DNA of 64,000 nucleotides from Candidatus Omnitrophota bacterium (GCA_023819145.1 JAMWCW010000001.1:66400-130399), one strand, 5' to 3'; counted from the first letter of the stretch, positions 1,211 through 23,138 are shown. Notes: generated from the letters alone by a model not told the origin. Program-made: numbers and translations.

Positions 1211-1361
1211 AATCTAAAGGGAATTATTCTCTAAAAAAACATCTTAAATAGATTATGGCGTAGTTGCAGGGTTTTACTTAAAAAAAGTCTTCCCGACTAA
1301 CTGAGTTGTTGATAGTTCGTCTTTCTTAATTTTTGTTAAGATTAGAGGGGGGATTCTAACT

Positions 1362-2210: not shown

Positions 2211-2260
2211 TTTTCTTCCCTGAGAAAATATAACACCTAATTTACCTAGCGTCAAGGGAC

Positions 2261-2292
2261 ACTTGACGATTTGCAAAAAGCGTGTTATATTT
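2261..2292 (+). promoter_or_regulatory. sigma70-like promoter (cccTTGACG -17- TATATT), copy 1 of a duplicated 29-bp promoter
   Basis: TTGACG 2264-2269, 17-nt spacer, TATATT 2287-2292; identical 29-mer CTTGACGATTTGCAAAAAGCGTGTTATAT recurs at 3913-3943; lies inside the over-long ORF 2271-3785, arguing that ORF's first 43 codons are not translated. Confidence 0.5.
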
Positions 2293-2399
2293 TAAACGAA
2301 ACTAAAATTCCTTTATCTAAGGATGCGGTAACTAATCTTTCCTTTAAGCTTAAATTTAGAACCCCTATAATTAAATACATAAAGAAGGTGTTTATACAA

Positions 2400-3785: not shown

Positions 3786-3905
3786 TAATGAGTCGTAATC
3801 CGTAAACCGTAATCGGTAATTTGTAATAAAAAATAACGAACTCAACGAAATAACCAACTAAACGAAAATAACGAAATTAACGAACACAACGAACAAAATA
3901 TCATC
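3786..3905. repeat. composite microsatellite: 5 tandem 7-mers (CCGTAAT-like) followed by about 7 AACGAA units at 8-9 nt period
   Basis: tcgtaat ccgtaaa ccgtaat cggtaat ttgtaat, then aacgaact caacgaaa taaccaac taaacgaa aataacgaa attaacgaa cacaacgaa read directly; a related element occurs at 39095-39180. Confidence 0.6.
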
Positions 3906-3912
3906 AACGCAG

Positions 3913-3944
3913 CCCTTGACGATTTGCAAAAAGCGTGTTATATC
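3913..3944 (+). promoter_or_regulatory. sigma70-like promoter, copy 2 of the duplicated 29-bp promoter
   Basis: TTGACG 3916-3921, 17-nt spacer, TATATC 3939-3944; identical to the 2261 copy over 29 nt; precedes the GAPDH-like gene with a ~245-nt leader. Confidence 0.5.
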
Positions 3945-4187
3945 TTAATGTAGAAGAGAGGTACTTTATAAAACTTAAATTTCAATATCATAAATTAACT
4001 TTCTAGAATAAAAAGATGAGAGATTTTAATTATTTCTTTCTATTGGAAAGTGAAAAAATAGTTTCTCATTCTAAAGGGTATCAAGCCCTGATTAAAGCAT
4101 TGGAGCATGGTTTTGAAGGATTAGACAAGGAAATAGCCAAGAGGTTAATAAATTCCTATTTATATTTAAATGAAAGGAGGGAATGTA

Positions 4188-6611: not shown

Positions 6612-6644
6612 AAAATAAGATTTATTCTCGCAAAAGGAGGAATT

Positions 6645-8798: not shown

Positions 8799-8868
8799 GA
8801 TCTTATAATTCTTCTTAGTAATTGAAGTTGTCTAAAAATTATTTGCTACTAAAGGAGGGATTGTAGAG

Positions 8869-10407
8869 ATGAGAAAAATATTTTTAGTTCTTTCTTTTTG
8901 TTTATTGTTTTTTCTATTTTGTCCTTTAAATTATAATTCTCAAGAATATTTTTCTTTCCGTAGAATTCATCGTAATCTTTTAATCACTGACCCACAACTT
9001 TTAGATGAGGCATATTTGTTGAATATCCTCCATATTGGGGGTGGATTGGGTTCCATTGTAGTCGATGCTCGTAGCGGAGAGCATATTGCGAGATTGAGTA
9101 TCTCTGGGAAAAGAATTATTAGTCGTGATGGTTTTAGCGTGCAGGATATTTTAAAAGGGATAGAAGAAGGGCGATTCGTTACTGTTACTCATCAAGAATT
9201 AGTTCAGAGGGCTCTTGAACATAGAGAGAATTGTGTGCTTGTCTTTACAGGTGGTGGAGATTCTGCGGGTATAAATGCAGTAATCAGTTCTGCAGTCCAA
9301 GGATTAAAGAAATTGAAACCAGAAATGACTGTTTTGGGTTTAAGAAACGCAGGAGCCAGTCTGGTGGTTTCTCCGGAAGAATTTCCCGAACATCTTGTTC
9401 TGATAGATGAATTATACGCTGAAGATGTTGCGGAACAGGGCAGTACTTTTTTGGGCTCTTCAAGGTATAATCCTTTTAAGAAAGCAGAAGATATGGCAAA
9501 GACTCTGGAAAACATAAAGGGTTTTGGAGCGTGGATTTCTACAGGAGGAGATGATAATCTTAAGGTTGCCCAGAGATTATCCCAGGAAAATCCGGAAATG
9601 GTGGTTTTGGCTACTGCCAAAACCATCGATGGTGATGTGATGGTTAATGGAAGAGGAGTGCAATGTTTGGGATTTGATTCAGCAGCGAAGATGTATCGGG
9701 ACGAAATTTATTCTATTGCCCAGAGTGCCAAAGCTCATGGAGAGAAAGAACAACCGCTGGTAATTGTGGTTGAGGTGTTTGGAAGGGATTCCGGAAGGTT
9801 GGCTTTTGAATCGGCGCGCCCCGATGACTTTTCCGGATTGAATGCGGAGGAAATTCGGAGACAAGTTGACCTTGCAGGAACGATAATGATCGTTGTTCCT
9901 GAGGAGAAACATGCTGACGGGACTCAAGCGACCATTGATGAATTAGTAAAAAGGGCAGAGGAAATTATTGCCCGCGAAAATGCAGTGGTAATAGTTGTTG
10001 CTGAAGGTTATCGGCCAGGAGATATGCCGGATATTGTAAAAACTTCTTCTAAAACAGATGCCTACGGACACGTTCAACTTGCCGGCATTGGTTCCGCGCT
10101 TGTTCCGGTTTTAGAAAAAAGAATTCCTAAAGCAAAAGTAAGAACCTCTCTTCTTAACTATGAAGGAAGGGGAACGCTTCCCAGCGAATACGATGTTACA
10201 TTGGGTTATAAGATTGGTTGGGAAATGGCTGAACTAATAGCCCAAGGAGTGACGGGTGGAAGGTTTGTAGGATATTTCAATGAAATGGATGCCCGTTTTG
10301 AACTGCCGGTGGTGCTGGAATTGGTGAATATCTCTAACCAGAATACCTTAGAGCTTTATCCCCGTCAAATATTAGAGAGGAATAGGGTTTTGGTGCTTGA
10401 TAGGTAA
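8869..10407 (+). CDS. pfk: 6-phosphofructokinase (ATP- or PPi-dependent) with RR leader
   Basis: VLVFTGGGDSAGINAVI, GSTFLGSSRYNPF, WISTGGDDNLKVAQRL, AKTIDGDV, PLVIVVEVFGRDSGRLAFESA match PfkA motifs closely; leader LVLSFCLLFFLFCP...YFSFRRIHRN; RBS aaggaggg. Confidence 0.8.
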   Translation: MRKIFLVLSFCLLFFLFCPLNYNSQEYFSFRRIHRNLLITDPQLLDEAYLLNILHIGGGLGSIVVDARSGEHIARLSISGKRIISRDGFSVQDILKGIEEGRFVTVTHQELVQRALEHRENCVLVFTGGGDSAGINAVISSAVQGLKKLKPEMTVLGLRNAGASLVVSPEEFPEHLVLIDELYAEDVAEQGSTFLGSSRYNPFKKAEDMAKTLENIKGFGAWISTGGDDNLKVAQRLSQENPEMVVLATAKTIDGDVMVNGRGVQCLGFDSAAKMYRDEIYSIAQSAKAHGEKEQPLVIVVEVFGRDSGRLAFESARPDDFSGLNAEEIRRQVDLAGTIMIVVPEEKHADGTQATIDELVKRAEEIIARENAVVIVVAEGYRPGDMPDIVKTSSKTDAYGHVQLAGIGSALVPVLEKRIPKAKVRTSLLNYEGRGTLPSEYDVTLGYKIGWEMAELIAQGVTGGRFVGYFNEMDARFELPVVLELVNISNQNTLELYPRQILERNRVLVLDR

Positions 10408-10461
10408 AGAGATAACTTATTTTATTTGGCATTTTTAAAACAAATAGGTTTCTGAGTATTT

Positions 10462-11253
10462 GTGCGATATTTAATAATAAGAAAAATAGTAATTATTTTA
10501 TTTTTTTTGGCTCTTTCTCAGACAATAGTATTTTCTCCGGTGTATGCTCGCAGAGTGAAGTGGTTTGGGGGTGAGTTATCACTTCTTCAAGAAAATAATT
10601 TTTTTGTAGGGCTGGAAGATAGTTTGAAAGAGTTTGTTATTAAATTCGAGGATGCCAGAGTAATAAAATCTATCTCTCAGCCAGAGCCATTAGAAGGGGA
10701 TGCCCCTTTTGATTCCGGAGAAAAGATAGTTACCTATAAAATTGAGGTTTTGACAGATAAAGGGGTTAGCAGTTTAGTAGTGAAATTGGTAAGTAGCAGA
10801 GAAGCAAAAAATTTCTTAACTGCTTCTTTAAGGGGTGTTTCTCCAGGTCCAGCGATTTTTGTAGAACAGGGGTGGGAGAACAGAAATGGCGTTAGCGAAG
10901 GTTATTTAATCTATCGGTTCTTTGAAGGAGTGAAGTTAAGCGAAATTTGTAATCAGGAACAGGCAATTGATATCCTAAAGAATAATCTTTGGATTATTGA
11001 AGAATTAGGTATTAAACTTGCGAATTTAAAGAAAGCAGGGGTAAAATATAGAGATTTTTTATATTATAATACGCTTATTGATTTAGAAAAGAGAGCTCTT
11101 GTGATTGTTGATTACGGTGATAGGCATTGCGCTGATCCCTTTATTCAGGTAAGAGATTGGTGGTTGCCTTTGATGTTCAATACTGAACCCGAGATATTAG
11201 AGAAAGTTATTAGTTTATTTGTAGAAGTTTATCAGAGAGAATTAAATAATTAA
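10462..11253 (+). CDS. protein-kinase-like fold protein (candidate secreted kinase) with RR leader
   Basis: VVKLV (VAIK-like Lys), KYRDFLYYNTLID (HRDxxxxN catalytic loop), VIVDYGD (DFG-like); leader IVIILFFLALSQTIVFSPVYARRVKW; GTG start. Confidence 0.35.
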   Translation: MRYLIIRKIVIILFFLALSQTIVFSPVYARRVKWFGGELSLLQENNFFVGLEDSLKEFVIKFEDARVIKSISQPEPLEGDAPFDSGEKIVTYKIEVLTDKGVSSLVVKLVSSREAKNFLTASLRGVSPGPAIFVEQGWENRNGVSEGYLIYRFFEGVKLSEICNQEQAIDILKNNLWIIEELGIKLANLKKAGVKYRDFLYYNTLIDLEKRALVIVDYGDRHCADPFIQVRDWWLPLMFNTEPEILEKVISLFVEVYQRELNN

Positions 11254-11325
11254 TGAGATTTGCTACTCTTAAAGAAATTATCTTGCGGCGAGAAATGATC
11301 ACAATTTTAAGGGGGAGGAAGTGAT

Positions 11326-13551
11326 ATGGGTATGAGGAAAATATTCATATTTTGTTTTATTCTCATAAAATTTGCCATCTTTTCATTTTCTTTTAATTTT
11401 TCCTCTTTAGAAATTATTGCGCATCGCAGAACTAAAATTTCTCCTTTAGTAGCAAATCATGAGTCTGTAAGGAAAGTTTTAGTAGATATTTTCTACAGAG
11501 CAGCAGGATTTCAAGGGGCTTTGCGCAGCGGAACAGCACAAGAACGGCGAGATATTTTAAACCAACCTGAGGTAAAGCGCGCTGTTTCTTTGCTCCAATA
11601 TGGTTTGAGTTTAGGAAGTACAACTTTAAGAAATCAAGTGGCTTATCTTGCTGAACGTTTAGGGATAAGCGCGAATCCCGCAGTAAATATTGGAATCTAT
11701 CAGGGAGAAGCCGAAATTTTTGATATTCTGGGAAATATCTTTATGCCTGAGGGAGATGGTTTAGTCTTTTATCAAAAAGGAACTGATAATCCCGAAACTC
11801 TTTTTAAGCCTTTTTTGGCTCGCTATGGAGCCAAAATATTTGAATTTGACCCTTACTTCGTAGAGCGCAATTCTACTCCCTCCTATTCTACAGAATTAAG
11901 CGGTTTTGAAGCGCTGATTTCTTTAGCTATTCAAGAGGGACAAAATCCGCGTTTTATCTATCTTAGCGGAAAAGGTTTAACCGAAGCGCAAGCAAGAAGA
12001 ATTTATGCTTTGGCAGAAACTTACAATCTTATAATTATTGAGGATATTACCAACGCAAACCCTACAGATTATCTACTTTCTGCAAACGATTCTCAAGGGA
12101 GAGTAATTTCCATCGGAAATTTTGACAAGTATTTAGGGGCTGCAAATCCTTTAAGTTATGCCATTGCGGGAGAAGAGATTATGCGTCTTATGGAAATTGC
12201 TATTGGCGGGATAAGTCTTCATCCCAATGCTTTTATTCAGCCGATAGTCTCGGAAATTTTAGCCCAAAACGGTATACCTTTCTCGGTAAATGTTTCCTAT
12301 AAACCCATCACTCTTTCTGAGAGTGTAAAAGCAATTCTTGCTTCAACAGGTGCAGACCAGCGCTTAAAACCCTCCATCATTAGAGAAATTCTTAAAGGGG
12401 CAGTTTCGGATATGGTGCGTATGGGAGGAGGGGTTCCTGCCGAGGAGTTCTTCCCTTATGTGGAAATTGCCCAGATTATAGAAAATATGAGCCCTGAGGA
12501 ATGGGAAAAGGTAATGGCTGGGGACCCGGCGATTAATTTAGAGTTGCGCAGTGTTTTTTGCCGGTGGCTTGAAGAAAGAGGAATAAAAGCTGACCCCCGT
12601 CAGGTTTTGGTAACCAATGGGAGCCAGCAGGGTTTGGATTTATTGGGAAGATGGGTGGGAAAAGAAGGAGTTGTTTTTGCCGAATCTCCTACCTATGTAG
12701 GAATGATTACGGGAGTTGCTCCTTACGGAGGCCTTCCTTATGGTAGAAATATTCGGCATTGGGATTTACGCACACTCACTGGATTAGAGAATTTAGAGAA
12801 AGAAATTGAAGAGAACTATCGAGGTAAAAAAATTGTTTTATATGTTACACCAAACTTTGGTAATCCTCCTTCAGGGAATATGTGGACGATTAGCGAAAGA
12901 AGGAATCTTCTGGCTTTTGCCCAGAGGATGCGCTTAAAGGGATACGATTTGCATATTGTAGAAGATGATCCTTATGGAGAACTAAATTATACTGGTCAAA
13001 GAATTGTAGATATCAAAGAGTTGGATACAAACGGAACAGTAATTTATTTCAACTCCAATTCCAAAGTCTTTTCTCCGGGAATGCGTGTGGGGTACATTGT
13101 GGCTGATGAGAAAATAATTCATGAATTTGCTTCTCTTATGGATGAAGTAGGTTCTTTTGTTCCTACACTCCCCCAACTTATTATTACTAAGTTTATCGAG
13201 ACAGGAGCGATGGATAGACATATTGAATTTTTGATTGGTGAATATTCAAAACGTGCACGGGCAATGGAAGAAGCTTTAGAGGAATTTATGCCTGAAGGTG
13301 TAACCTGGACAAAACCTGAGGGAGGGTTATTTATTACTTTAACTGTTCCCTGGGATATAGATTTTATGGCCATGCTTGAGGAGGCCAAAAATTACGCGAT
13401 TCCCTTTAACTTTGTTCCGGGTATCGCCTTTAGTGTGGATGGCTCAAGTGCTCATAAAATTCGTCTTTGCTTTTCCACAGAGTCTGAAGAAAGAATAACC
13501 TTAGGTATTAAGGCTTTTGCGGAGTTGATAAAAAAACACCTTGGCCAATAG
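11326..13551 (+). CDS. PLP-dependent aminotransferase (class I/II fold) with N-terminal degenerate aminotransferase-like domain and RR leader
   Basis: C-half: LVTNGSQQGLDLLG, NSNSKVFSPGMRVGYIV (SxSK...R PLP-lysine motif); N-half has similar architecture (IYLSGKG...IIIEDI, SIGNFDKYLGAANP) without the full motif; leader FIFCFILIKFAIFSFSFNFSS...IIAHRRTKIS. Confidence 0.5.
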   Translation: MGMRKIFIFCFILIKFAIFSFSFNFSSLEIIAHRRTKISPLVANHESVRKVLVDIFYRAAGFQGALRSGTAQERRDILNQPEVKRAVSLLQYGLSLGSTTLRNQVAYLAERLGISANPAVNIGIYQGEAEIFDILGNIFMPEGDGLVFYQKGTDNPETLFKPFLARYGAKIFEFDPYFVERNSTPSYSTELSGFEALISLAIQEGQNPRFIYLSGKGLTEAQARRIYALAETYNLIIIEDITNANPTDYLLSANDSQGRVISIGNFDKYLGAANPLSYAIAGEEIMRLMEIAIGGISLHPNAFIQPIVSEILAQNGIPFSVNVSYKPITLSESVKAILASTGADQRLKPSIIREILKGAVSDMVRMGGGVPAEEFFPYVEIAQIIENMSPEEWEKVMAGDPAINLELRSVFCRWLEERGIKADPRQVLVTNGSQQGLDLLGRWVGKEGVVFAESPTYVGMITGVAPYGGLPYGRNIRHWDLRTLTGLENLEKEIEENYRGKKIVLYVTPNFGNPPSGNMWTISERRNLLAFAQRMRLKGYDLHIVEDDPYGELNYTGQRIVDIKELDTNGTVIYFNSNSKVFSPGMRVGYIVADEKIIHEFASLMDEVGSFVPTLPQLIITKFIETGAMDRHIEFLIGEYSKRARAMEEALEEFMPEGVTWTKPEGGLFITLTVPWDIDFMAMLEEAKNYAIPFNFVPGIAFSVDGSSAHKIRLCFSTESEERITLGIKAFAELIKKHLGQ

Positions 13552-13608
13552 ATTTTTTTGTAATATTTATATCTCCCTTTGGTTATAGATAATAGGGGGG
13601 CGAGAAAG

Positions 13609-14769
13609 ATGAAGAAATACTTAAGAATTAGAGGGATATTTATTTTAGTAGTATTTGTAGTATTTTTATTTACGCTTTTGATTCCTGTAAAACATTCCTT
13701 GGCTTATCCCAGGAGTTATCCTTATTTAGTTTCTAATTCATTACCAGCTTTTTCCGCGCGAGGGTTTAATGAAGCGCTCTTAGCGCGAGTTTTGCGCGAG
13801 ATTATCATTATCTATAAATTCTTGGCTCAAATCGAAAGGGTTCTTAATGAAAGAGGAGAAAATGATTTTCCATCTTTAGGTAGGGTCATCGGAGACAGAC
13901 CTCAGGAGAGAGAAAATTCCCAAAATACTCCCCCCAAAAGAAGTAATTTAAGGGAAGAACCTGCGGGTAACCGTCATCTAGACCCAGAAAATCCTTCGGC
14001 AAAACTACCAGAAGGGTCATCTTCGTCACCTGCTGGTTCTCTAGGAAAGATAAAGATTGCGATTATTGATATTGACTCTAAGCACGCCGCAGAAGTAAAG
14101 GCGGTAATGGAAGAGACAATTCGGCGTAAGAATCCCGGGGCAAAAGTAGAAATTCGTACCATTATTCTTCCTGGCAAATGGCAAAGGGATGGTTCTAAAG
14201 CGGTGGCTACCAGTGATATTTTAGACGCTTTTGCAGAAGCCAAAGCTTGGGGCGCAAAGGTAATCAATATGAGTATTGGTGCACAAGGAGGTGTAGACGG
14301 TATAGTGCTTAGTGCCTTACGCGACCTTTCTGAAAGTGGCATTCTGGTAGTAGCGGCATCAGGTAATGAAGGTAGTTATGATGCTTGGGGGCAAGCTGGC
14401 CGATATGTCTTATCAGTGGGGGTAAGAGGTGCACCTTATTCCAATACCGCTGATTTATATGTCGATTGGGGAGAGCTTCCACCTGGATTAGAAGGCACAT
14501 CTTTTGCTGCTCCGATTATTGCTGCGGAAGCGGCTTTAGCCTGGTTAGAAAACCCTTCCCTTAACTTGGCAAGTTTGCCTTCTCAATTAGGTTCACGGGA
14601 CACAGTTTATGCCCGGAGTAATCCTCCGCAAAGAAGTTCGCAGGGGTTTCACACTTCGGCAATAGAGTTTGTAAGGCCACCTGTTGTTTTTTATACGCCG
14701 GTGGAAGAAATGCCTTTTTACGAACAGAGTTTTTATTCGCCTGTTGGCTGTTTTCCGTCTTTTTGGTAA
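13609..14769 (+). CDS. subtilisin-like serine peptidase (S8 family), signal-anchored, no canonical HGTH motif seen
   Basis: AIIDIDS (Asp box), VINMSIGA, VAASGNEGS (oxyanion Asn), GTSFAAPIIAA (catalytic Ser box); start at ATG 13609 after RBS agggggg; N-term LRIRGIFILVVFVVFLFTLLIP; no RR motif after the hydrophobic segment. Confidence 0.55.
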   Translation: MKKYLRIRGIFILVVFVVFLFTLLIPVKHSLAYPRSYPYLVSNSLPAFSARGFNEALLARVLREIIIIYKFLAQIERVLNERGENDFPSLGRVIGDRPQERENSQNTPPKRSNLREEPAGNRHLDPENPSAKLPEGSSSSPAGSLGKIKIAIIDIDSKHAAEVKAVMEETIRRKNPGAKVEIRTIILPGKWQRDGSKAVATSDILDAFAEAKAWGAKVINMSIGAQGGVDGIVLSALRDLSESGILVVAASGNEGSYDAWGQAGRYVLSVGVRGAPYSNTADLYVDWGELPPGLEGTSFAAPIIAAEAALAWLENPSLNLASLPSQLGSRDTVYARSNPPQRSSQGFHTSAIEFVRPPVVFYTPVEEMPFYEQSFYSPVGCFPSFW

Positions 14770-14876
14770 TTTTTGTTTGTTTTCTTCTAAATAAAGGGGA
14801 CACTTACTACCGACTCTTCATTGGTTGTAAGAAAGTAAAAGATATTAAACTTGAATTCCGAGGAGGTATTATATAA

Positions 14877-16064
14877 ATGAAAAATAGTAGAGGAAAGATT
14901 TATGTTATGTTTTTGGGTTTGTTATTTTTCTTTCTTAACTCATTATTATATTTAGACTTATCTGCGGGATGCTCTTTCCGGCGAATCAAAACTCAACCTG
15001 CCAAAGAATCTGCGCTGGTGCTTTTTTTCCACGAATTAGGTAGAGAAGATATTTTTTTAGTGGGAGGAAAAGGGGCAAATTTGGGAGAACTTTCGCATAT
15101 TGCCGGGATAAGCGTTCCCGAGGGGTTTGTAGTTACCACCACCGCTTTTCAAAAATTTTTAGATGCCAACCCTGGATTACAAGATAAAATTATCAGGATT
15201 ATAAATAGTATAGATTGGGATACCCCTTCCAGTATAAACTCTGCTGCGGAAAAGATAAAAGAAGCGGTTTTGCGTGCGAACATGCCGCGAGAGATTATTG
15301 AGATGATTAAAGCAGGTTATGGCCATTTAGAAGAGATCTCCGGAATAAAGGATGTGCCCTGTGCTGTAAGAAGTTCGGGAGTTGCTGAGGATTCTCCTAA
15401 CTTTTCTTGGGCAGGTCAATTCCGCACTGAATTAAATCAGAGGGGAATATATCAGGTTTTAGAGGCGGTTAAATTAATCTGGGCAGAGTTGTATAATCCT
15501 GATGCCCTTACCTATGGACATCAGAATGGTATCGACCCGCGCAAATTTTCTATGGGAGTGGTAATTCAGCGGATGATAAATTCAGAGAAATCAGGAGTGG
15601 CTTTTGGACTGGAGTCCGATACAGGTTTTCGTGCCAATCCCGGAGGAATGGAAGGAGTTTTTTATATTGAAGGGGTTTATGGTTTAGGTGAAGGGATGGT
15701 GCAAAATATTCAAGAACCTGATGGATTTTTGGTAGTAAAGATGCCTAATGGTGAATTTAAAATTATTGAACGCATTTTCGGTTCCAAAAGAGAACAGATA
15801 GTTTATCGGTCTGGAATGAGTGGGACAGAGAAAACTTCGGTTCCCGAAGAATGGCGTCAGAGATGGGTTTTTTCAGAAGCAGAGGTGTTAGAGATTGCTC
15901 GTGCAGTTTTTGCCTTAAATAGCCACTATAATCATCCCCAGGATGTAGAATTTGCCTGGGAAGGAGGAAAACTATACATATTACAATCACGCAATGAGAC
16001 AGTTCATGCAGATAAACCAGTAGATTTAATTGAATGGAGAAAGTTTAGAATTAACCTTAAATGA
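14877..16064 (+). CDS. PEP synthase/pyruvate phosphate dikinase N-terminal nucleotide-binding (ATP-grasp) module, separate ORF, with RR leader
   Basis: LVGGKGANLGELSHIAGISVPEGFVVTTTAF matches PEP-utilising enzyme N-terminal signature; RBS gaggagg; leader VMFLGLLFFFLNSLLYLDLSAGCSFRRIKTQP. Confidence 0.75.
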   Translation: MKNSRGKIYVMFLGLLFFFLNSLLYLDLSAGCSFRRIKTQPAKESALVLFFHELGREDIFLVGGKGANLGELSHIAGISVPEGFVVTTTAFQKFLDANPGLQDKIIRIINSIDWDTPSSINSAAEKIKEAVLRANMPREIIEMIKAGYGHLEEISGIKDVPCAVRSSGVAEDSPNFSWAGQFRTELNQRGIYQVLEAVKLIWAELYNPDALTYGHQNGIDPRKFSMGVVIQRMINSEKSGVAFGLESDTGFRANPGGMEGVFYIEGVYGLGEGMVQNIQEPDGFLVVKMPNGEFKIIERIFGSKREQIVYRSGMSGTEKTSVPEEWRQRWVFSEAEVLEIARAVFALNSHYNHPQDVEFAWEGGKLYILQSRNETVHADKPVDLIEWRKFRINLK

Positions 16065-16083
16065 AAAAAGGGGGAGATAAATA

Positions 16084-18471
16084 ATGAAGTGGTTACATGT
16101 TAAAATTTTTTGGAGTATTGCCTTTTTAATTATTGCCAGCCTACTTTATGTTGATAATCTTTTTATGTTTTCTTCTTTAGATTTTATTACAAGAAGAGTA
16201 TTAACTCCTTCTTATACAGATTCTCCTTCGGTTGAGGTTCCCTCCGGTTCTCCTAAAATAATTGCCCGTGGAGAAGGGGTAGGTGCTAAAGGAGCGGGGG
16301 TAGGACGAGTGGTTATCATTGATGAAAATAGTTCCATCCCTATTCGTGAGCAGGCAATGCGTGTGCGCGAAGGAGATGTACTTGTTGCTTATCGCACCGA
16401 TCCTTCTTTGGTGGATGCCATGCGCCGAGCAGGTTTGGTGATTACTGAAATTGGAGGGAAAAATTCTCATGCTGCGATTGTCGCTAGAGAATTTAATTTA
16501 AATGCGGTTATTGGTGTGCCCAATGCTACGCGTATTTTTGCTCAAGGGCAGGTAGTTACTGTTGATGCTGAGCATGGAGTCATTTATGCTGGAGCTTTGC
16601 CGCTTGAAGAAGATAGTGTTTCCTATCGCGTGAGTGAACTTCCGTCTACGAGCCCTGTAAAGATAGGGATACTTTCCTTTGATACTGCTCGGGTGAGAGC
16701 GATGTTTCCTTTGGGTTTGTATTCTGATTTTTACGGTATAGGGCTGATGCGTGCAGAGTTTGCTTTACAAAATATTGGCATCCATCCGTTAGCAATATTG
16801 GATTTTGATAGAGGTACGCTTAGAGATGCAAGGCTACAAACAGAAATTACGCAAAAAATCAAAGGCTATGCGAGTGCGCGAGACTATTACATCTCAAAAC
16901 TTTCTTCTGCAATATTTTCCAATTCGCTTATTCTACATGAGGGGCAAAAGGTTATTTACCGCACCACTGATTTTAAAACCAACGAATATGAAGATATGTT
17001 AGGAGGGGATGTTTACGAGCATAAAGAGCCCAACCCCATGATGGGCAATCGCGGTTTACAGCGAATGATTAGTCCTGAATACCGGGAAGCATTTGATATG
17101 GAACTCGAAGCATTTTTACTTGCCTGGAAAGATAATCCGGGAAAGATTTCTATCATGGTTCCTATGGTACGCACTCCCCAAGACCTTCTGACTTTTCGTC
17201 AAATTCTTGAGGGAAAAATAAGGAGTATGGGGCTCTCGGGTATGCCTGAGGTAGTAATGATGTATGAATTGCCCGCGAATGTTTTTCAGATAGAGGAATT
17301 TATTCACGCCGGTATAAATGGTATTTCCATTGGTTCAAATGACCTGACACAATTTATTCTGGCAGTAGACAGGGACAGTGGTTTATTTAGAGAAGGAGGT
17401 AGAGAAGAATATGATGCCGTAAATAGAGCAGTATTGCGTGCTATCGGCATCGGTATAACTTCTTCTAAAGCCCGCGGTGTAAAAACAGGTATTTGTGGGC
17501 AAGCGCCATCAGACCATCCAGATGTTTATCCTGCAATTCTTACTGCTTTAGGAATAGATTCTATAAGTGTTACTCCCGATGTGTTTCATAAAGTGGTAGA
17601 AGCAGTAGCCCAAGCACAACAAAATCCTTCTTTTGGGATGAGATACCTTTCGGGTTTAGATTTATTTTTAGGCTACGATACCCAGACTAATCCCAAACGA
17701 GAATTAAAGAAGATAATTAGTTCTGATGATATACTTCGGAGTATTGGCATTCATCCTTTAGCCTTACTTGCCTTTGACCGGGGAAGTAGTTTATTGAGTG
17801 ATACGGCGATAAGTAGGCAGATTGTTTCTTTTGCCGGAGAAGAAACTGCAGAACGGGCTTACTTTGACCGTGTATATAGGGCGGTAAAGAATGCTTTACT
17901 TATGGATGGAGAGGTAGTTTATAGAACAGGAAGTTTGCTCAGTACCGATTATAAAACGCTTGTGGGAGGAGATATTTTTGAAAAAGAAGAAGCAAATCCC
18001 TTATTGGGTGCGTTTGGAATGTACCGCCTGCTCAGATATGGTTCAGAAGATGGCGCTTTGAGTATGCGTGATATTTTTAACATAGAGATGGATGCAGTTT
18101 TAAAAGCTGTGCGGGATACCGGTAAAGTTATTCATTTAGAGTTAGATATGGTGCGCACTTTTGGAGAATTACAGGAGGCAGTTTCTGTGATTAATGAGGC
18201 AATACGCCGTACAGGGATTTCTCCAGATAAGGTGAAAATTGGTCTAAATGTTTCTACTCCGGCAAATGTTCTGCTTATTTCTGATTTTATTAACCAAGGG
18301 AGATTAAGTTTTGTGAGTATCGACGAAAAAAGGTTAGCCTGTTATCTTTTGGGGGTGGATTCCTTGAGTATGGTTAGCCCCGAGGCTATTGAACGAGCCC
18401 TATATATACCTCGTCAACTGGTTTATACAGCATTAGCTCAAAAGGGAATCCCTTTAGTTAACTCCCCCTAA
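16084..18471 (+). CDS. PEP synthase/PPDK phosphohistidine swivel domain plus PEP/pyruvate-binding TIM barrel, followed by a degenerate second TIM-barrel copy, with RR leader
   Basis: GGKNSHAAIVAREFNLNAVIGV (mobile His domain), GLMRAEF, MVPMVRTPQD, SIGSNDLTQF (TIM-barrel motifs); second copy GIHPLALLAFDRG, LDMVRTFGEL, LSFVSIDEKRL lacks NDLTQ; leader IAFLIIASLLYVDNLFMFSS...FITRRVLTP. Confidence 0.75.
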   Translation: MKWLHVKIFWSIAFLIIASLLYVDNLFMFSSLDFITRRVLTPSYTDSPSVEVPSGSPKIIARGEGVGAKGAGVGRVVIIDENSSIPIREQAMRVREGDVLVAYRTDPSLVDAMRRAGLVITEIGGKNSHAAIVAREFNLNAVIGVPNATRIFAQGQVVTVDAEHGVIYAGALPLEEDSVSYRVSELPSTSPVKIGILSFDTARVRAMFPLGLYSDFYGIGLMRAEFALQNIGIHPLAILDFDRGTLRDARLQTEITQKIKGYASARDYYISKLSSAIFSNSLILHEGQKVIYRTTDFKTNEYEDMLGGDVYEHKEPNPMMGNRGLQRMISPEYREAFDMELEAFLLAWKDNPGKISIMVPMVRTPQDLLTFRQILEGKIRSMGLSGMPEVVMMYELPANVFQIEEFIHAGINGISIGSNDLTQFILAVDRDSGLFREGGREEYDAVNRAVLRAIGIGITSSKARGVKTGICGQAPSDHPDVYPAILTALGIDSISVTPDVFHKVVEAVAQAQQNPSFGMRYLSGLDLFLGYDTQTNPKRELKKIISSDDILRSIGIHPLALLAFDRGSSLLSDTAISRQIVSFAGEETAERAYFDRVYRAVKNALLMDGEVVYRTGSLLSTDYKTLVGGDIFEKEEANPLLGAFGMYRLLRYGSEDGALSMRDIFNIEMDAVLKAVRDTGKVIHLELDMVRTFGELQEAVSVINEAIRRTGISPDKVKIGLNVSTPANVLLISDFINQGRLSFVSIDEKRLACYLLGVDSLSMVSPEAIERALYIPRQLVYTALAQKGIPLVNSP

Positions 18472-18948: not shown

Positions 18949-18977
18949 TTGACGATAAGAGAAAGATGTGATATAAT
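18949..18977 (+). promoter_or_regulatory. strong sigma70-like promoter TTGACG -17- TGaTATAAT (extended -10) for the giant YD-repeat gene
   Basis: TTGACG 18949-18954, extended -10 TGATATAAT 18969-18977; 25 nt upstream of ATG 19002. Confidence 0.5.
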
Positions 18978-19001: not shown

Positions 19002-22000
19002 ATGAATAAAATAATAAAAATGATAAATATGGAAAAGAAGAGAAAATATATTCTTATCTTTTTGGGACTATTTTTGCTTATTAGTGCCTATGTAGAGGCA
19101 AAGGTGCGTACTCAAGTAATTCGCAATAGCCCCGTCCCGGAAAGAAATGTGGGAATTATTCCTGAGGCGCGTTCGGTAGAAGACTGGGCACGGGTGAGAA
19201 CTCAGGTTATAAAAGAAACAGAAAGGAGAAACCGTCAAATAGAGACCAGCCAGAATCTTCCCGATAAAATGGAAGATAGCCGGAGAGAGACAGAAGAGGA
19301 ACGCCTCAAATCCGCTTACAAAATAGAAAAAGATGCTCGGGAGATGAAACAAAAAATAGAGCAGGCTTCTCCCAATGAGGTGGTAGGAGAAAATCCCGAT
19401 GGGACAAAATGGTATCAATACTCAGGAAGATTTGACATCTTCAAGAACTGGATAAAAAACAAACTCAAAGAACTTGGCCTCTTGGATAAATGGAAGGGTG
19501 AAAGTTTTGAGGAATTAGTTCAAAAATATGGTAAAACCAATTTTGACCTCACCTTCAACAAAAAATCTTGGTCTTATTTTGGTAAGCGCTCCTCGACTCT
19601 GCAAACCACAGAATTTCAATTTAGTTTAACCAATCCCGAAGATAATTTTGAAAAATATATTCAGACGCGCTCGCGTCAATTAATCTGGGATAGCGCCAAT
19701 AATCGCGAGGCAGAAATTGTGCAACATACTATAACCGATGAGATAGAATGGGCAGGTAAGTTCTATGGCACGCCGGGAAAAACCGAACAAGGAAGGCAGA
19801 TGCTTTCTTCTCGCCAGAGAACTTGGGATGAGACCAGGGGAACTTATTCTGAGGTAAACCAGAGAAATGTCTATGAAGGGAATTTCCATATGCCCATTAA
19901 GACCATCCGCAAGGTCTTTGAATCGGGCTACGATACTAAAGGCAATTACTATGAACGCCGATACGAGATGACCCGTGAGAATATTGAATGGGCGTGGGTT
20001 GTTTCAAGTGACCCAATTTCTGGCGGAAGTTATGAAACAAAGAGCTTTGACCAGACGATGATTGATTATTCCACGCCTGATAAAAAGACAATTTCCCACC
20101 ATGAGTTTACTTATACTGATGATGGAGTTCCGGAAAGTCAATTGATTGTTAGCCGAGAAGTTGGTTTAGGGCTAAATCATATTTCAGTAAGTTTAGAAAG
20201 ATATCTTGACTACTACAAAGATGGTTCTTTGCGCCAAGGACTGAGTCTTGATCTCACTGGTGATTTTCCTGACGTATATACCGCCGTAAAAGAAGGAAGA
20301 ACTTTACAGAATTTAATCAATAATAAAGAAACAAAGTCGCAAATCGAAGCACAGTTGGGACGCAGTTTAAACTTGAACAATCCTCAAGATTTAAAAATCT
20401 ATACCGCTTATCTGAGGGAAGGATTGGGGGAAACAGCAAGAAAAATCAGTTTGAGTTTTGCCGAGAAGAAACACAATGACAAAGCATTCCTTGCCTGGGA
20501 AAAAGAGACAGTTGCCATTGAAGGAAAAGATGAAAATGGGAGCCTGATTAGTTCTAGCAGTGAAATAGAAAAAACTTATACCCAGTTCTTACCCTTTGGT
20601 CAACCCACAGAGATTGAGCAACTGATAAGAAGCGAAGCCACACCAAATGTAGAAACAAAATTAAAGATTTCTTTAAAATACAACAAGTATTGTCAGGTAA
20701 CTGAACAGAGAACCGAAACGCGAGAAACAAGCCTTGATGGCAAACTTAATAAACACACGATAAGCATAAAAGATAAAATTGTTTACAATGGTTTAGGACA
20801 GGAAATTTCCTATCGTGAGCGAGAAGAAGAATATGATATAGATGGAAAGCGCATTGGCAATCGTGAAACTTTAGTAAAAAATATTACCTATAATGAAGAT
20901 GGCTTGCAGACCGGTTACGAGATGCAGAGCATAACCAGAGGAATTGATACTCATGATGGAAGTATTTTTGAGATAATTACTGAAACAAAAGTGCGCGATA
21001 TCCGATATAATGAATTGGATATGCGTATATCCTGGAAGGAGATAAGTATAGATTTAAGCAGAAGCCCGGGATTAATTAGTGAGAGAATGTATCAGGTAAA
21101 GGCAATAGATGAATTTGGAAGAATTACGGAGATAGATATAAAAGAACACACTTATGGCACTGCTTCCGATGGAACCTCTCTAAATACTGAACGCACCATT
21201 AACCGCAAGATAAAATACAACTCTTTAGGTCAGGAAGAAGAGGCAATTGAGGAGGTAATTGAGAAGGCAAAGACCACTATCTCAACCATTAAATATGCCT
21301 ATGACCAGTATGGGAGAATTTCGCGCGAAGAAAGAAAAGTGCATGTAACGGGGAAAGATGGAGATAGCGAATTGGACTATACTTATACTCTATTGCGCTA
21401 TGGATTTGAGTACAATGATGCAGGACTTCTACAGAGATATAAGGCTAAAATCCGGAATGAATCTACAGCCGATATAGAAATAACTCAGGAGGTAGAGATT
21501 GGCTATGACAGTCTGGGAAGAGTAGATTATCAGAAGACTCAAGTCTGGGAAGATACGCGAAGCGGAGATAAGGCCTTACACAAATACACACTTACCGTAA
21601 GGGAAAACATTACCTATAATGAATTAGGATTAGAGACAGCTTATACTGAAACAGAGGAGGAATTTGATGAAGATGGAAAACGCATTGGCAATCGTAAGGT
21701 TAAGGTAAGTAACATTACTTATAATGAAGATGGTTTGCAGACTGGTTATGACATGGCGGTAATAGTAGAAGGGACTGATACCCATGACGGAAGTAGTTTT
21801 GAAACCTTTACCGAGATTAAAGTGCGCGATATTCGTTACAACAATTTAGGCATCCGCATTAGTTGGAGAGAAACCACCATAGATACAAGTAGGAGTCCAG
21901 GATTAACTACCGAAAGAAAATACGCGGTTACAGAGATAGATAGGTTTGGTAGACCTATAGAGCTTATAATCAATGAGCATGCTTATGGCTCTGCTTCTGA

Positions 22001-23138
22001 CGGGACAAGTTTAGATACCTTCCGCAAGATTACACGCCAGATAACCTACAATTCTTTAGGTCAGGAAGAGGAAATTACTGAAACCGTAGAAGAAGGGGCA
22101 AAGAAAACCACTTCCAAGATTAAGTACGAATACGATGAATGTGGCAGGATTAAATATGAAGAAAGAAATATTCATGTAGAGGGCGAAGAAGAGGGGGTTG
22201 AGTTGGATTATATTTCTACAATAAGGCGTTATGGATTTAAATACAATGATGCAGGGCTTGTACAGGGCTATACGGCAGAAATCTGGAACGAGTCCAGTCC
22301 CGACTTAGAAATAAAGCAGGAGGTAGAATTTGGCTATGACAGTCTGGGAAGAATAGACTATCAACGAAGCGAAACCTGGGAAAAGGGAATAAGTAAAAAG
22401 CGCGATAAACATGGTGAACCTACAGGCGAGGAAGAAGAGGTTGAACGGCATACAATTTCTGAGAAATATGATATCCAATATAATGAATTGGGCTTGGAAA
22501 CTTATTATAAAACCGATAGAAAAGAATACGAGGATGGAGAGTTAATCCGCGATGTTACCGAGACCACTTCGGGAATAAGGTATGATAGTAAGGGAAGAAT
22601 GACTGAATACACCACCCATAGAACTGGTCAAGAGAGATTCCTTGAAGACAGTGGAGAATATGGGGAATTAAAGAGTGTAAATATTACTACCCATATTTAC
22701 AACATTACCTATGTTGATGGTCTGGATTTAAGAAAATCCTGGAGAGAAGAAATTTCTGGTTATATAGGGGGACAGGAATTTAAGGCAAGCACCCGTCAAT
22801 ATGAAATCTTAGAATTTGACCGCTTTGGAGAAGTGGTAGATATAAATATTGAAGGAGATGGAGTGGAGGAGGAAAATTCTGCTCCTCAGATTGATACGCG
22901 GGGAACAACTTCTGGCCCAGAAGTTAATCAGACCACCAGACCTTACTCTCCGACAGGTTCAATAAAGACAACAAGTGTTCGTCGGGGACCAGTAAGAGGT
23001 TTAGGAGTGCGCGGAAAAAGTAGAACTTATGCAAAAAGACCTTCCGGAATAAGTCTTTTGAGTAGTGAATCCAGTCAGCGTAAGAAATTAGAAGAGGAAG
23101 CAGAATATATTACGCCAGATAAAGAAGAAGAAAAATAG
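19002..23138 (+). CDS. giant secreted YD-repeat (Rhs/teneurin-type) protein, 1378 aa, with two near-identical ~290-aa tandem super-repeats
   Basis: Signal peptide YILIFLGLFLLISAYVEA; YD-type units ITYNEDGLQTGY, YAYDQYGRISREE, YEYDECGRIKYEE, IGYDSLGRVDYQ; super-repeat from about aa 598-888 repeated at 889-1170 (nt about 20790-22510); alternative start at ATG 19029 (MEKKRK) is possible. Confidence 0.6.
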   Translation: MNKIIKMINMEKKRKYILIFLGLFLLISAYVEAKVRTQVIRNSPVPERNVGIIPEARSVEDWARVRTQVIKETERRNRQIETSQNLPDKMEDSRRETEEERLKSAYKIEKDAREMKQKIEQASPNEVVGENPDGTKWYQYSGRFDIFKNWIKNKLKELGLLDKWKGESFEELVQKYGKTNFDLTFNKKSWSYFGKRSSTLQTTEFQFSLTNPEDNFEKYIQTRSRQLIWDSANNREAEIVQHTITDEIEWAGKFYGTPGKTEQGRQMLSSRQRTWDETRGTYSEVNQRNVYEGNFHMPIKTIRKVFESGYDTKGNYYERRYEMTRENIEWAWVVSSDPISGGSYETKSFDQTMIDYSTPDKKTISHHEFTYTDDGVPESQLIVSREVGLGLNHISVSLERYLDYYKDGSLRQGLSLDLTGDFPDVYTAVKEGRTLQNLINNKETKSQIEAQLGRSLNLNNPQDLKIYTAYLREGLGETARKISLSFAEKKHNDKAFLAWEKETVAIEGKDENGSLISSSSEIEKTYTQFLPFGQPTEIEQLIRSEATPNVETKLKISLKYNKYCQVTEQRTETRETSLDGKLNKHTISIKDKIVYNGLGQEISYREREEEYDIDGKRIGNRETLVKNITYNEDGLQTGYEMQSITRGIDTHDGSIFEIITETKVRDIRYNELDMRISWKEISIDLSRSPGLISERMYQVKAIDEFGRITEIDIKEHTYGTASDGTSLNTERTINRKIKYNSLGQEEEAIEEVIEKAKTTISTIKYAYDQYGRISREERKVHVTGKDGDSELDYTYTLLRYGFEYNDAGLLQRYKAKIRNESTADIEITQEVEIGYDSLGRVDYQKTQVWEDTRSGDKALHKYTLTVRENITYNELGLETAYTETEEEFDEDGKRIGNRKVKVSNITYNEDGLQTGYDMAVIVEGTDTHDGSSFETFTEIKVRDIRYNNLGIRISWRETTIDTSRSPGLTTERKYAVTEIDRFGRPIELIINEHAYGSASDGTSLDTFRKITRQITYNSLGQEEEITETVEEGAKKTTSKIKYEYDECGRIKYEERNIHVEGEEEGVELDYISTIRRYGFKYNDAGLVQGYTAEIWNESSPDLEIKQEVEFGYDSLGRIDYQRSETWEKGISKKRDKHGEPTGEEEEVERHTISEKYDIQYNELGLETYYKTDRKEYEDGELIRDVTETTSGIRYDSKGRMTEYTTHRTGQERFLEDSGEYGELKSVNITTHIYNITYVDGLDLRKSWREEISGYIGGQEFKASTRQYEILEFDRFGEVVDINIEGDGVEEENSAPQIDTRGTTSGPEVNQTTRPYSPTGSIKTTSVRRGPVRGLGVRGKSRTYAKRPSGISLLSSESSQRKKLEEEAEYITPDKEEEK

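What the first reader, a model, noticed from the sequence alone, without database searches (positions are those of the whole stretch)
14877..18471. PEP synthase/PPDK split into two separately leader-tagged ORFs
The ATP-grasp nucleotide-binding module (14877-16064) and the phosphohistidine plus PEP/pyruvate module (16084-18471) are separate ORFs 19 nt apart. Each has its own RBS and its own signal-anchor plus RR leader (CSFRRIKTQP and FITRRVLTP). This argues against a sequencing frameshift. A functional enzyme would need both leader-tagged halves delivered to the same place. This supports the leader acting as a co-localisation signal.
Basis: partly seen in the sequence, partly recalled or inferred. 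Interest (0 to 1): 0.55.

Follow-up and report, generated by a model that had tools for sequence, protein, structure and literature searches.

The report
Split PEP synthase, each half leader-tagged
In this uncultured Omnitrophota bacterium a PEP synthase gene that is a single gene in its nearest relatives has been cut in two by a ~180-base insertion, and that insertion gives the second half its own ribosome-binding site, start codon and copy of an undescribed N-terminal leader, which suggests the leader is needed to send each polypeptide to the same place.

Summary
ORF1 (14877-16064, 395 aa) is the ATP-grasp (PPDK_N) module. ORF2 (16084-18471, 795 aa) is the phosphohistidine plus PEP/pyruvate module, followed by an extra degenerate copy of the PEP-binding domain. 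They lie 19 nt apart, and each has a Shine-Dalgarno site and a hydrophobic leader with an RR motif.

The four nearest relatives (51-73% identical, other Omnitrophota) and more distant long-form PEP synthases are all single fused proteins of about 1150 aa. However, the difference is not an indel. In the interdomain linker, 217 nt of the window replace 39 nt of the fused genes (net +178 nt). The new sequence carries a stop, an SD, an ATG, a 22-residue hydrophobic core, the RR motif and a Pro/Ser tether. No single indel can re-fuse the frames.

The break falls exactly at residues 352/355 of the solved PEP synthase 2OLS. All catalytic residues are kept, and both halves have diverged at the same low non-synonymous rate.

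The best reading is a recent, probably functional gene fission that acquired a second leader. Eleven normally cytosolic enzymes in the window carry the same leader, and it is conserved in relatives. I found no description of it. Where it sends proteins is untested.

The parts
14862..14866 (+). Shine-Dalgarno GGAGG of ORF1
14877..16064 (+). ORF1, 395 aa: leader plus the ATP-grasp (PPDK_N) half of PEP synthase (NCBI MCM8783200.1)
14877..15008 (+). ORF1 leader (aa 1-44): K/R n-region, hydrophobic core aa 8-26, CSFRRIKTQP (RR codons 14979-14984). Ancestral: it is present on fused orthologues P0122 and P0124.
15057..16019 (+). PPDK_N nucleotide-binding domain (aa 61-381). Conserved GGKGANLGEL (K65), AVRSSG (R165) and QDVEFAW (E358).
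16038..16254 (+). Lineage-specific replacement of the interdomain linker: 217 nt here against 39 nt (13 codons) in fused orthologues, net +178 nt. It contains the ORF1 tail RKFRINLK, the stop, the SD, the ATG, the ORF2 leader and a Pro/Ser tether.
16070..16076 (+). Shine-Dalgarno GGGGGAG of ORF2, 7 nt before the ATG
16084..18471 (+). ORF2, 795 aa: leader, phosphohistidine swivel domain, PEP/pyruvate TIM barrel and a degenerate second TIM-like domain (NCBI MCM8783201.1)
16084..16206 (+). ORF2 leader (aa 1-41): MKWLHVK, hydrophobic core aa 8-29, FMFSS, DFITRRVLTP (RR codons 16192-16197). Absent from all fused relatives, so newly acquired.
16207..16254 (+). Pro/Ser-rich tether PSYTDSPSVEVPSGSP between the leader and the swivel domain
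   Evidence: AF2 pLDDT is about 65-68 for residue blocks 31-60.
16366..16578 (+). PEP-utilizers (swivel) domain. The catalytic His129 in GGKNSHAAIV is at 16468-16470.
16729..17619 (+). PEP-utilizers_C TIM barrel. R223, R323, E395, N419 (NDLTQ) and Cys471 (GICGQ, 17494-17496) are retained.
17641..18468 (+). Degenerate internal duplicate of the PEP-binding domain (aa 520-795). The catalytic Arg/Glu/NDLTQ/Cys are lost. It is shared by all long-form relatives.
13579..14769 (+). Context: a subtilase (Peptidase_S8) with an ordinary signal/anchor and no RR motif. An S8 gene also lies near the long-form PpsA in L007 and L009. It is a candidate leader-processing protease (inference only).

Best explanation
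This is a recent, probably functional gene fission of a clade-specific 'long-form' PEP synthase (pyruvate, water dikinase) that already carried an N-terminal leader.

In the lineage of this Omnitrophota MAG, the 13-codon linker between the ATP-grasp domain and the phosphohistidine domain was replaced by 217 nt. That sequence ends the first polypeptide. It then supplies a Shine-Dalgarno site, an ATG, a new copy of the clade's leader (K/R n-region, 22-residue hydrophobic core, FxFSS, RR-V) and a Pro/Ser tether for the second polypeptide.

The two genes are co-transcribed with a 19-nt gap. Each product would be routed by its own leader to the same membrane or extracytoplasmic destination. There the ATP-grasp subunit would phosphorylate His129 of the swivel domain in trans, and the swivel domain would pass the phosphate to pyruvate at the Cys471 TIM barrel. 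This resembles the two-subunit PEP-synthase-like phenylphosphate synthases.

Shown: the fission, the insertion, the leader's family membership, domain integrity and conservation. Inferred: co-transcription, trans-assembly, the leader's targeting role and the destination.
For: (1) Fused ancestry. P0121 (73% identical), P0122 (65%), P0123 (55%) and P0124 (51%), and the leaderless long forms P0125-P0127, are single proteins of 1057 (partial) to 1390 aa with PPDK_N, PEP-utilizers and PEP-utilizers_C. An exhaustive HMMER search of ORF1 against 1.84e9 representatives finds only itself, then fused P0124 and fused P0126.

(2) Structured insertion. The anchor-to-anchor distance is 286 nt, against 108, 108 and 117 nt in L009, L007 and L010. 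A single indel cannot re-fuse the frames.

(3) The break is at residues 352/355 of 2OLS.

(4) The catalytic His, Cys, Arg, Glu and NDLTQ residues and the ATP-grasp motifs are intact. The combined PpsA model score of 283.7 + 450.9 bits exceeds the 598-bit cutoff that neither half reaches alone. The AF2 model of ORF2 is confident (pLDDT 88.4, pTM 0.89).

(5) Both halves show equal, low non-synonymous divergence from the fused L009 gene (pN 0.17 and 0.19, against pS 0.68-0.76).

(6) The SD sites are good, and the alternative Met28 has none.

(7) No promoter- or terminator-like site lies between the ORFs, and a hairpin follows the ORF2 stop.

(8) The leader family is real. It occurs on 11 window enzymes with the consensus [SIA][ALF]-RR-[IV]-K-[ST]-x-P at residues 27-44. 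It also occurs on the orthologues and their neighbours, with an R-[IM]-[IV]-R variant in L010.

(9) There is precedent for separate ATP-grasp and His-domain subunits in phenylphosphate and phenylphosphoamidate synthases (PMC7500099).
Against: No second genome carries the same split. Selection since the fission therefore cannot be measured, because the dN/dS estimate integrates the whole divergence. Independent sequence confirmation is also lacking.

The ORF2 leader deviates from the consensus (Leu instead of Lys after RR-V). No donor for the inserted DNA could be identified. There is only weak similarity to the ORF1 leader (protein z 3.4), to the aminotransferase leader (26 of 31 nt, shared AAGGGGGAG SD) and to a 20-nt, 75% direct repeat of the linker. 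None of these stands out against AT-rich background.

An ATP-dependent enzyme outside the cytoplasm is biochemically awkward. There is no canonical AxA signal-peptidase site. AF2 gives no confident structure for residues 1-31.
Confidence: 0.75

Rival explanations
1. This is incipient pseudogenisation. An insertion disrupted the fused gene, and one or both ORFs are decaying remnants. The leader-like look of the ORF2 N-terminus is then a coincidence of T-rich inserted DNA.
For: The split is unique to this MAG. Selection after the split is unmeasurable. The ORF2 RR motif is slightly off consensus. A relative's cluster has a broken enolase (L007), so gene decay does occur in such clusters.
Against: The inserted sequence simultaneously provides a stop, a well-spaced SD, an ATG, an n-region, a 22-residue hydrophobic core, FMFSS and RR-V, and it rejoins the swivel domain in frame. 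I estimate the chance of RR[IV] at residues 25-45 alone at about 0.007. Both ORFs (395 and 795 codons) are free of stops and keep every catalytic residue.
Confidence: 0.12
2. This is an assembly or sequencing artefact, such as a chimeric insertion or misjoin in the metagenome assembly.
For: The source is a MAG, no reads are available here, and there is only one observation of the junction.
Against: The flanks are collinear with the same gene on both sides. The insert has no other copy in the 64-kb window that could seed a misjoin. The contig is 221 kb and carries intact 1378- and 2015-aa ORFs. A random chimera would not create an in-frame leader with an SD.
Confidence: 0.03
3. The split is real, but the halves no longer work together. 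For example, the ATP-grasp subunit serves another His-domain partner, or ORF2 acts alone as a PEP-utilising phosphotransferase.
For: Stand-alone PPDK_N proteins that pair with non-PpsA partners (Rph_4th/PEP-utilizers) are common.
Against: The two ORFs remain adjacent with a 19-nt gap and diverge at equal rates. ORF1 is 73% identical to the N-part of the fused orthologue, not to the stand-alone families, which are at most 42% identical. No alternative partner is in the window.
Confidence: 0.06
4. This rival concerns the destination only. The leader is an uncleaved membrane tether that holds the enzymes on the cytoplasmic face (N-out/C-in, with the RR-x-K cluster as a positive-inside determinant). 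The halves would then meet on the inner leaflet rather than being exported.
For: The basic cluster follows the hydrophobic core, and no AxA site is present. ATP- and NAD-dependent enzymes make sense in the cytoplasm. The Pro/Ser tether after the ORF2 leader looks like a stalk.
Against: The n-regions also carry 2-4 Lys/Arg, as classical Sec signals do (MKNSRGK, MKWLHVK, MRK...), so the charge difference does not favour N-out. The co-located S8 protease has an ordinary export signal.
Confidence: 0.3

Closest known systems
Canonical PEP synthase PpsA (pyruvate, water dikinase; e.g. N. meningitidis 2OLS, E. coli PpsA)
   Same: It has the same three catalytic modules in the same order, the same catalytic His and Cys, and all PEP/pyruvate-site residues. 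ORF1 and ORF2 together cover 2OLS residues 6-781.
   Different: The canonical enzyme is one cytosolic polypeptide of about 800 aa without a leader. Here there are two polypeptides, each with a hydrophobic leader, plus an extra degenerate PEP-binding domain. Each half alone scores below the NCBIfam equivalog cutoff.
Long-form PEP synthases of about 1100-1400 aa (Omnitrophota P0121-P0124; Desulforudis audaxviator P0127, P0126, P0125)
   Same: They share the duplicated C-terminal domain. The Omnitrophota members also share the N-terminal leader (P0122, P0124) and nearby S8 protease genes.
   Different: All are single fused ORFs with a 13-16-residue linker where the window has a stop, an SD, an ATG and a leader.
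Phenylphosphate synthase and phenylphosphoamidate synthase (Pps/Pas alpha and beta; Thauera aromatica, Desulfatiglans anilini)
   Same: These PEP-synthase-like enzymes have the ATP-binding module (beta) and the phospho-His module (alpha) as separate gene products that work together (PMC7500099; Schmeling et al. 2004 as cited there).
   Different: They phosphorylate phenol or aniline, not pyruvate, and they are cytosolic without leaders. Beyond that paper, my own knowledge is that the alpha subunit lacks the PEP/pyruvate TIM barrel and that the Thauera enzyme needs a third subunit. The stand-alone PPDK_N proteins I inspected, which are at most about 40% identical to ORF1, have Rph_4th/PEP-utilizers partners nearby.
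Sec-type signal peptides or signal anchors, and Tat (twin-arginine) signals
   Same: The leader has a basic n-region and a hydrophobic core of about 20 residues, like Sec signals. The S-x-RR-[IV]-K motif resembles the Tat S/T-RR-x-F-L-K consensus (that consensus is from my own knowledge).
   Different: The RR motif lies after the hydrophobic core, not before it. There is no AxA site. Ordinary lipoprotein-type signals in the same window lack the motif. No Pfam or NCBIfam model covers it.

Membership tests
PEP synthase (pyruvate, water dikinase, PpsA) | N-terminal ATP-grasp nucleotide-binding domain (PPDK_N) | tested here: met
   ORF1 aa 61-381, 306.9 bits. It aligns to 2OLS residues 6-352.
PEP synthase (pyruvate, water dikinase, PpsA) | Swivel domain with the catalytic phospho-histidine (GGxxxHAAIVARE) | tested here: met
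   ORF2 aa 95-165, His129. The His is invariant in alignment A3.
PEP synthase (pyruvate, water dikinase, PpsA) | C-terminal PEP/pyruvate TIM barrel with the catalytic Cys and the NDLTQ, Arg and Glu ligands | tested here: met
   ORF2 aa 216-512. C471, N419, E395, R223 and R323 are all invariant columns.
PEP synthase (pyruvate, water dikinase, PpsA) | All three modules on one polypeptide, reaching the NCBIfam equivalog cutoff (NF005057, 598 bits) | tested here: not met
   There are two ORFs, scoring 283.7 and 450.9 bits separately. Only their sum exceeds 598.
PEP synthase (pyruvate, water dikinase, PpsA) | Catalyses ATP + pyruvate + H2O -> AMP + PEP + Pi | not testable with these tools
   This needs an enzyme assay with both subunits.
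Pyruvate, phosphate dikinase (PPDK) | Full-length match to PPDK models (TIGR01828) | tested here: not met
   Only 55 and 69 bits, against a cutoff of 843.
Phenylphosphate-synthase-type split enzymes | Separate ATP-grasp subunit and His-domain subunit | tested here: met
Phenylphosphate-synthase-type split enzymes | The His-domain subunit lacks the PEP/pyruvate TIM barrel (it has an Rph_4th-type domain instead), and the ATP-grasp subunit belongs to the stand-alone PPDK_N clade | tested here: not met
   ORF2 has a complete PEP-utilizers_C domain. ORF1 is 56-73% identical to fused PpsAs and at most 42% identical to stand-alone PPDK_N proteins. The stand-alone proteins have different neighbours.
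Sec-type cleavable signal peptide | Basic n-region plus a hydrophobic h-region | tested here: met
   Kyte-Doolittle 17-residue maxima are 2.27 (ORF1) and 2.09 (ORF2). The n-regions carry 3 (ORF1) and 2 (ORF2) Lys/Arg.
Sec-type cleavable signal peptide | c-region with a small-x-small (AxA) signal peptidase I site | tested here: inconclusive
   No consistent AxA is present. ORF1 has SAG|C and ORF2 has FSS|L. No dedicated predictor was available.
Tat signal peptide | Twin-arginine motif in the n-region, upstream of the h-region | tested here: not met
   RR lies 8-18 residues downstream of the hydrophobic core in all 16 leaders.
Omnitrophota RR-leader family (provisional, defined here) | Hydrophobic core followed by [SIA][ALF]-RR-[IV]-K-[ST]-x-P at residues 27-44, on normally cytosolic enzymes | tested here: met
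   ORF1 matches fully (SFRRIKTQP). ORF2 matches RR-V, T and P but has Leu in place of Lys. It also shares the FxFSS sub-motif with the PGK and aminotransferase leaders.

The most novel reading that the evidence does not exclude
The RR-leader would be a dedicated, undescribed targeting signal. It would move a whole set of glycolytic/gluconeogenic and amino-acid enzymes out of the bulk cytoplasm of these ultra-small, possibly host-dependent Omnitrophota. The set comprises PGK, GAPDH, aldolase, PFK, PEP synthase, FBP aldolase/phosphatase, an aminotransferase and an asparaginase. The destination could be the periplasm, the cell surface, a prey cell or a membrane-bounded compartment. The syntenic S8 subtilase might cleave at the dibasic RR site. 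The PEP synthase fission would then be a natural experiment showing that every polypeptide of the module must carry its own leader.
Probability: 0.3. Interest if true: 0.85.

Novelty: new variant of a known kind. Interest (0 to 1): 0.55.

Why it matters
Gene fissions are common, and split PEP-synthase-like enzymes are known, so the split alone is modest. The interest lies in what was inserted. A complete second copy of a clade-specific leader appeared exactly when the C-terminal half became an independent polypeptide. This is comparative evidence that the leader is a functional, per-polypeptide signal and not annotation noise. The same leader sits on about a dozen normally cytosolic central-metabolism enzymes in this and related Omnitrophota. 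If it is an export or compartment signal, these uncultured nanobacteria place ATP-dependent central metabolism somewhere unexpected. The two PEP synthase halves would then make a convenient pair for testing targeting and reassembly.

Tried and rejected
- **Frameshift or indel:** rejected. The difference is a net +178 nt replacement, and the stop codons in the two frames overlap so that no single indel fuses them.
- **ORF1 as a member of the widespread stand-alone PPDK_N families:** rejected. Those families are at most 42% identical to ORF1 and have Rph_4th/PEP-utilizers, PEPCK-like or unrelated neighbours.
- **Word-index search with ORF1:** it missed the fused orthologues. The ORF2 search and the exhaustive search found them.
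- **Search for a second instance of the split:** a genome-contig scan with ORF2 found nothing. A scan with the C-terminal-domain alignment A2 found only the P0121 contig. The metagenome scan gave only 26-32% identical long forms.
- **P0242, the 36-aa 'representative' of ORF2's cluster:** it is an unrelated clustering artefact.
- **Donor of the inserted DNA:** there is no repeat in the window. Local similarities to the ORF1 and aminotransferase leaders, and a 20-nt linker repeat, are not above the AT-rich background.
- **Extending the context beyond the window:** three exact-protein look-ups failed, probably because the annotated start codons differ.
- **Other scans:** Rfam found no RNA family in the window. 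The promoter/terminator scan found nothing above the shuffle expectation between the ORFs.
- **Literature:** I found no paper on this leader or on leader-tagged glycolytic enzymes in Omnitrophota.


Full report
**1. Observation**

ORF1 is 14877-16064 (395 aa). ORF2 is 16084-18471 (795 aa). A 19-nt spacer separates them, and ORF2 is in frame +1 relative to ORF1.

Pfam assigns PPDK_N to ORF1 aa 61-381. It assigns PEP-utilizers (aa 95-165) and PEP-utilizers_C (aa 216-512) to ORF2. Against the NCBIfam PpsA equivalog NF005057 (798 positions), ORF1 covers positions 2-341 and ORF2 covers 353-791. PPDK models score an order of magnitude lower, so the enzyme is a pyruvate, water dikinase and not a PPDK.

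On the solved N. meningitidis PpsA (2OLS), ORF1 aa 48-391 aligns to residues 6-352 and ORF2 aa 55-501 aligns to residues 355-781. The break is at the interdomain linker and no catalytic sequence is missing.

ORF1 has GGAGG 10 nt upstream of its ATG. ORF2 has GGGGGAG 7 nt upstream. The only downstream Met that would skip the hydrophobic segment (M28) has no SD.

Both N-termini have a K/R n-region, a hydrophobic core of about 20 residues and an RR motif 8-10 residues further on: CSFRRIKTQP in ORF1 and DFITRRVLTP in ORF2.

**2. Relatives are fused, but the difference is not an indel**

The window comes from a 221-kb contig of a Candidatus Omnitrophota MAG. ORF1 is MCM8783200.1 and ORF2 is MCM8783201.1.

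The closest homologues of ORF2 are single proteins that carry all three Pfam domains:
- P0121: 73% identical, 1057 aa, partial, from an Omnitrophota MAG.
- P0122: 65% identical, 1154 aa.
- P0123: 55% identical, 1157 aa.
- P0124: 51% identical, 1145 aa.
- More distant long forms without a leader: P0125, P0126 and P0127 (Desulforudis audaxviator, 1115 aa).

ORF1 is 73, 63, 53 and 55% identical to the N-terminal parts of P0121, P0122, P0123 and P0124.

An exhaustive HMMER search of ORF1 against 1.84 billion representatives returned only itself, then fused P0124 (56%) and fused P0126 (43%). Everything else was at most 42% identical. Scans of GTDB species genomes and JGI metagenome contigs found no closer relative and no second split.

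The fused state is therefore ancestral. The fission is confined to this lineage and is younger than its divergence from P0121.

At the junction the fused proteins read ...PLDLIEW-SIKKVSSQVAESA-KIIARGEGVG... The window reads ...PVDLIEW-RKFRINLK*, then 19 nt, then MKWLHVKIFWSIAFLIIASLLYVDNLFMFSSLDFITRRVLTPSYTDSPSVEVPSGSP-KIIARGEGVG.

The distance between the conserved anchors is 286 nt in the window. It is 108, 108 and 117 nt in L009, L007 and L010. So 217 nt (16038-16254) replace 39 nt, a net gain of 178 nt, which explains the frame change.

The frame-0 stop (16062-64) lies upstream of the last frame+1 stop (16078-80). No single-base error could have produced the two ORFs from a fused gene.

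The inserted segment contains, in order:
- a stop codon
- an SD
- an ATG
- an n-region
- a 22-residue hydrophobic core
- the FMFSS and RR-V motifs of the local leader family
- a Pro/Ser tether that rejoins the swivel domain in frame

**3. Are both halves intact?**

ORF2 retains His129 (GGKNSHAAIV), Cys471 (GICGQ), R223, R323, E395 and N419 (NDLTQ). All of these are invariant in a 30-sequence alignment. ORF1 keeps GGKGANLGEL, AVRSS and DVEFA.

Against the fused L009 gene, non-synonymous divergence is the same in both halves (pN 0.17 and 0.19). Synonymous sites are saturated (pS 0.68-0.76). This shows long-term purifying selection, but it cannot isolate the period since the fission.

AlphaFold2 models ORF2 with pLDDT 88.4 and pTM 0.89. 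Only residues 1-31 and 49-53 are unstructured.

No promoter- or terminator-like element separates the ORFs. A small hairpin follows the ORF2 stop, and a strong promoter-like site (18949-18977) precedes the next gene.

**4. The extra domain**

ORF2 residues 520-795 are an internal duplicate of the PEP-binding domain. The BLOSUM62 local score against residues 181-515 is 261, and the segment alone matches PEP-utilizers_C at 40 bits. The duplicate has lost the Arg, Glu, NDLTQ and Cys catalytic positions.

All long-form relatives share this domain.

**5. The leader family**

Of 39 non-nested ORFs of at least 120 aa in the window, 11 have an N-terminal hydrophobic segment followed by RR:
- a methyltransferase (287)
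- an unknown protein (1362, minus strand)
- PGK (2271)
- GAPDH (4170)
- class II aldolase (6645)
- PFK (8869)
- a Bud32-like protein (10462)
- an aminotransferase (11326)
- the two PpsA halves (14877 and 16084)
- an asparaginase (60162)

None of the other membrane proteins or lipoproteins in the window has the motif.

Aligned on RR, the consensus is [SIA]-[ALF]-R-R-[IV]-K-[ST]-x-P at residues 27-44. Several leaders also share an FxFSS stretch.

The leader is conserved outside this genome:
- P0122 has TFRRIKS and P0124 has SLRRIKS.
- In L007, the FBPase_3 neighbour has EARRVKG and two small neighbours have IARRIKG and MARRIRT.
- In L010, the motif is R-[IM]-[IV]-R on four different proteins.

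An S8 subtilase with an ordinary signal and no RR motif lies near the long-form PpsA in the window, in L007 and in L009.

No Pfam or NCBIfam model covers the leader. I found no paper describing it.

**6. Origin of the second leader**

This is unresolved. The ORF2 leader aligns best with ORF1's own leader (z 3.4, with 2 of 300 shuffles reaching the score) and with the aminotransferase leader (z 3.1). With the aminotransferase leader it also shares 26 of 31 nt and the SD AAGGGGGAG.

A 20-nt, 75% direct repeat, 157 nt apart (16021-16040 and 16178-16197), hints that the linker (LDLIEW... against LDFITRR...) was duplicated.

None of these similarities exceeds what T-rich leader-coding DNA gives among unrelated pairs.

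**7. Mechanism**

The best-supported reading is a functional two-subunit PEP synthase created by fission. Each subunit carries the clade's leader so that both reach the same destination.

Trans-phosphorylation of a separate His-domain subunit by a separate ATP-grasp subunit has precedent. In the phenylphosphate and phenylphosphoamidate synthases, the alpha and beta subunits are homologous to the PEP synthase/PPDK and pyruvate, water dikinase modules (PMC7500099).

What the leader does is inference. Its n-region and h-region look Sec-like. The RR motif sits on the wrong side of the hydrophobic core for Tat. There is no AxA site. The dibasic motif and the linked S8 protease suggest processing.

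The destination could be the periplasm or surface, or a cytoplasmic-face tether. It cannot be decided from sequence, and an exported ATP-dependent enzyme is biochemically puzzling.

**8. Verdict**

The split is genuine and is not a frameshift, even though relatives are fused. The gain of a second leader at the fission point is the strongest evidence available in this window that the leader is a functional per-polypeptide signal.

Novelty: a new variant of a known kind, namely a split PEP-utilising enzyme. It sits inside a leader system that appears to be undescribed.

Remaining doubts:
- There is a single observation and no read-level check.
- There is no measure of selection since the split.
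- There is no experimental evidence for targeting or reassembly.

Noticed in passing
window 287-18471 and 60162-61886: About eleven normally cytosolic enzymes all carry the same clade-specific N-terminal leader: a hydrophobic core followed by RR-[IV]-K. They are a methyltransferase, PGK, GAPDH, class II aldolase, PFK, a Bud32-like protein, an aminotransferase, PpsA (two ORFs), an asparaginase and one unknown protein. Lipoprotein-type signals in the same window (30419, 49207, 54698) lack the motif. All score below the NCBIfam equivalog cutoffs, so they are divergent copies.
   Followed up: partly
window 17641-18468 (ORF2 aa 520-795); 4302-5399 (GAPDH N-extension); 11461-12405 (aminotransferase N-extension): The leader-tagged enzymes carry long extra domains. 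In PpsA the extra domain is a catalytically dead duplicate of its own TIM barrel. The GAPDH extension weakly matches Gp_dh_N (E 0.0026, sub-threshold). The aminotransferase extension gave no Pfam match. These may be single-chain pseudo-dimers.
   Followed up: partly
window 13579-14769; L007 10272-11495; L009 3306-4466: A subtilase (Peptidase_S8; weak hits to mycosin and PatA-type maturation proteases) lies near the long-form PpsA in three genomes. It has an ordinary signal/anchor and a conserved aromatic C-terminus (…PSFW, …SVFVW, …PVIWP). Its His-motif region is unusually short (DIDSKHAAEV). It is a candidate protease for the dibasic leader motif.
   Followed up: partly
window 6645-8798: The class II fructose-bisphosphate aldolase is interrupted by an inserted helix-hairpin-helix module (HHH_3, ComEA/PsbU-like, aa 402-445). 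Modules of this type are typical of extracytoplasmic proteins.
   Followed up: no
window 19002-23138 and 23396-29443: Two giant ORFs (1378 and 2015 aa) with N-terminal hydrophobic segments have no significant Pfam match. The first has YD/Rhs-like repeats (YNxxGxxxxY), a large internal tandem duplication and a twice-repeated (K/R)VRTQVI(R/K) motif near its N-terminus. The second has a 14-residue poly-Gly run and an acidic helical C-terminus.
   Followed up: no
window 29623-30276: An IS200/Y1-type transposase-like ORF lies at the boundary between the leader-tagged/giant-protein cluster and the housekeeping genes (an RND efflux system, trehalose synthesis and others).
   Followed up: no
L007 14-722 and 920-4138: In the P0122 genome the enolase next to the cluster is broken into 68-aa and 158-aa ORFs. 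A 1072-aa FBP aldolase/phosphatase (FBPase_3) carries the leader (AEARRVKGNP).
   Followed up: no
L010 667-9471: In the P0123 lineage the leader motif is R-[IM]-[IV]-R (TTRIVRT, TSRIIRG, SARMIRG, YPRIVRD) on four different proteins. The twin arginine itself is therefore not invariant across the clade.
   Followed up: partly
window 16084-18471 (database note): ORF2's 90% cluster in the protein collection is represented by an unrelated 36-aa JGI fragment (P0242). For that reason ORF2 does not find itself in homology searches. The word-index search with ORF1 also missed the 56-73% identical fused orthologues.
   Followed up: yes
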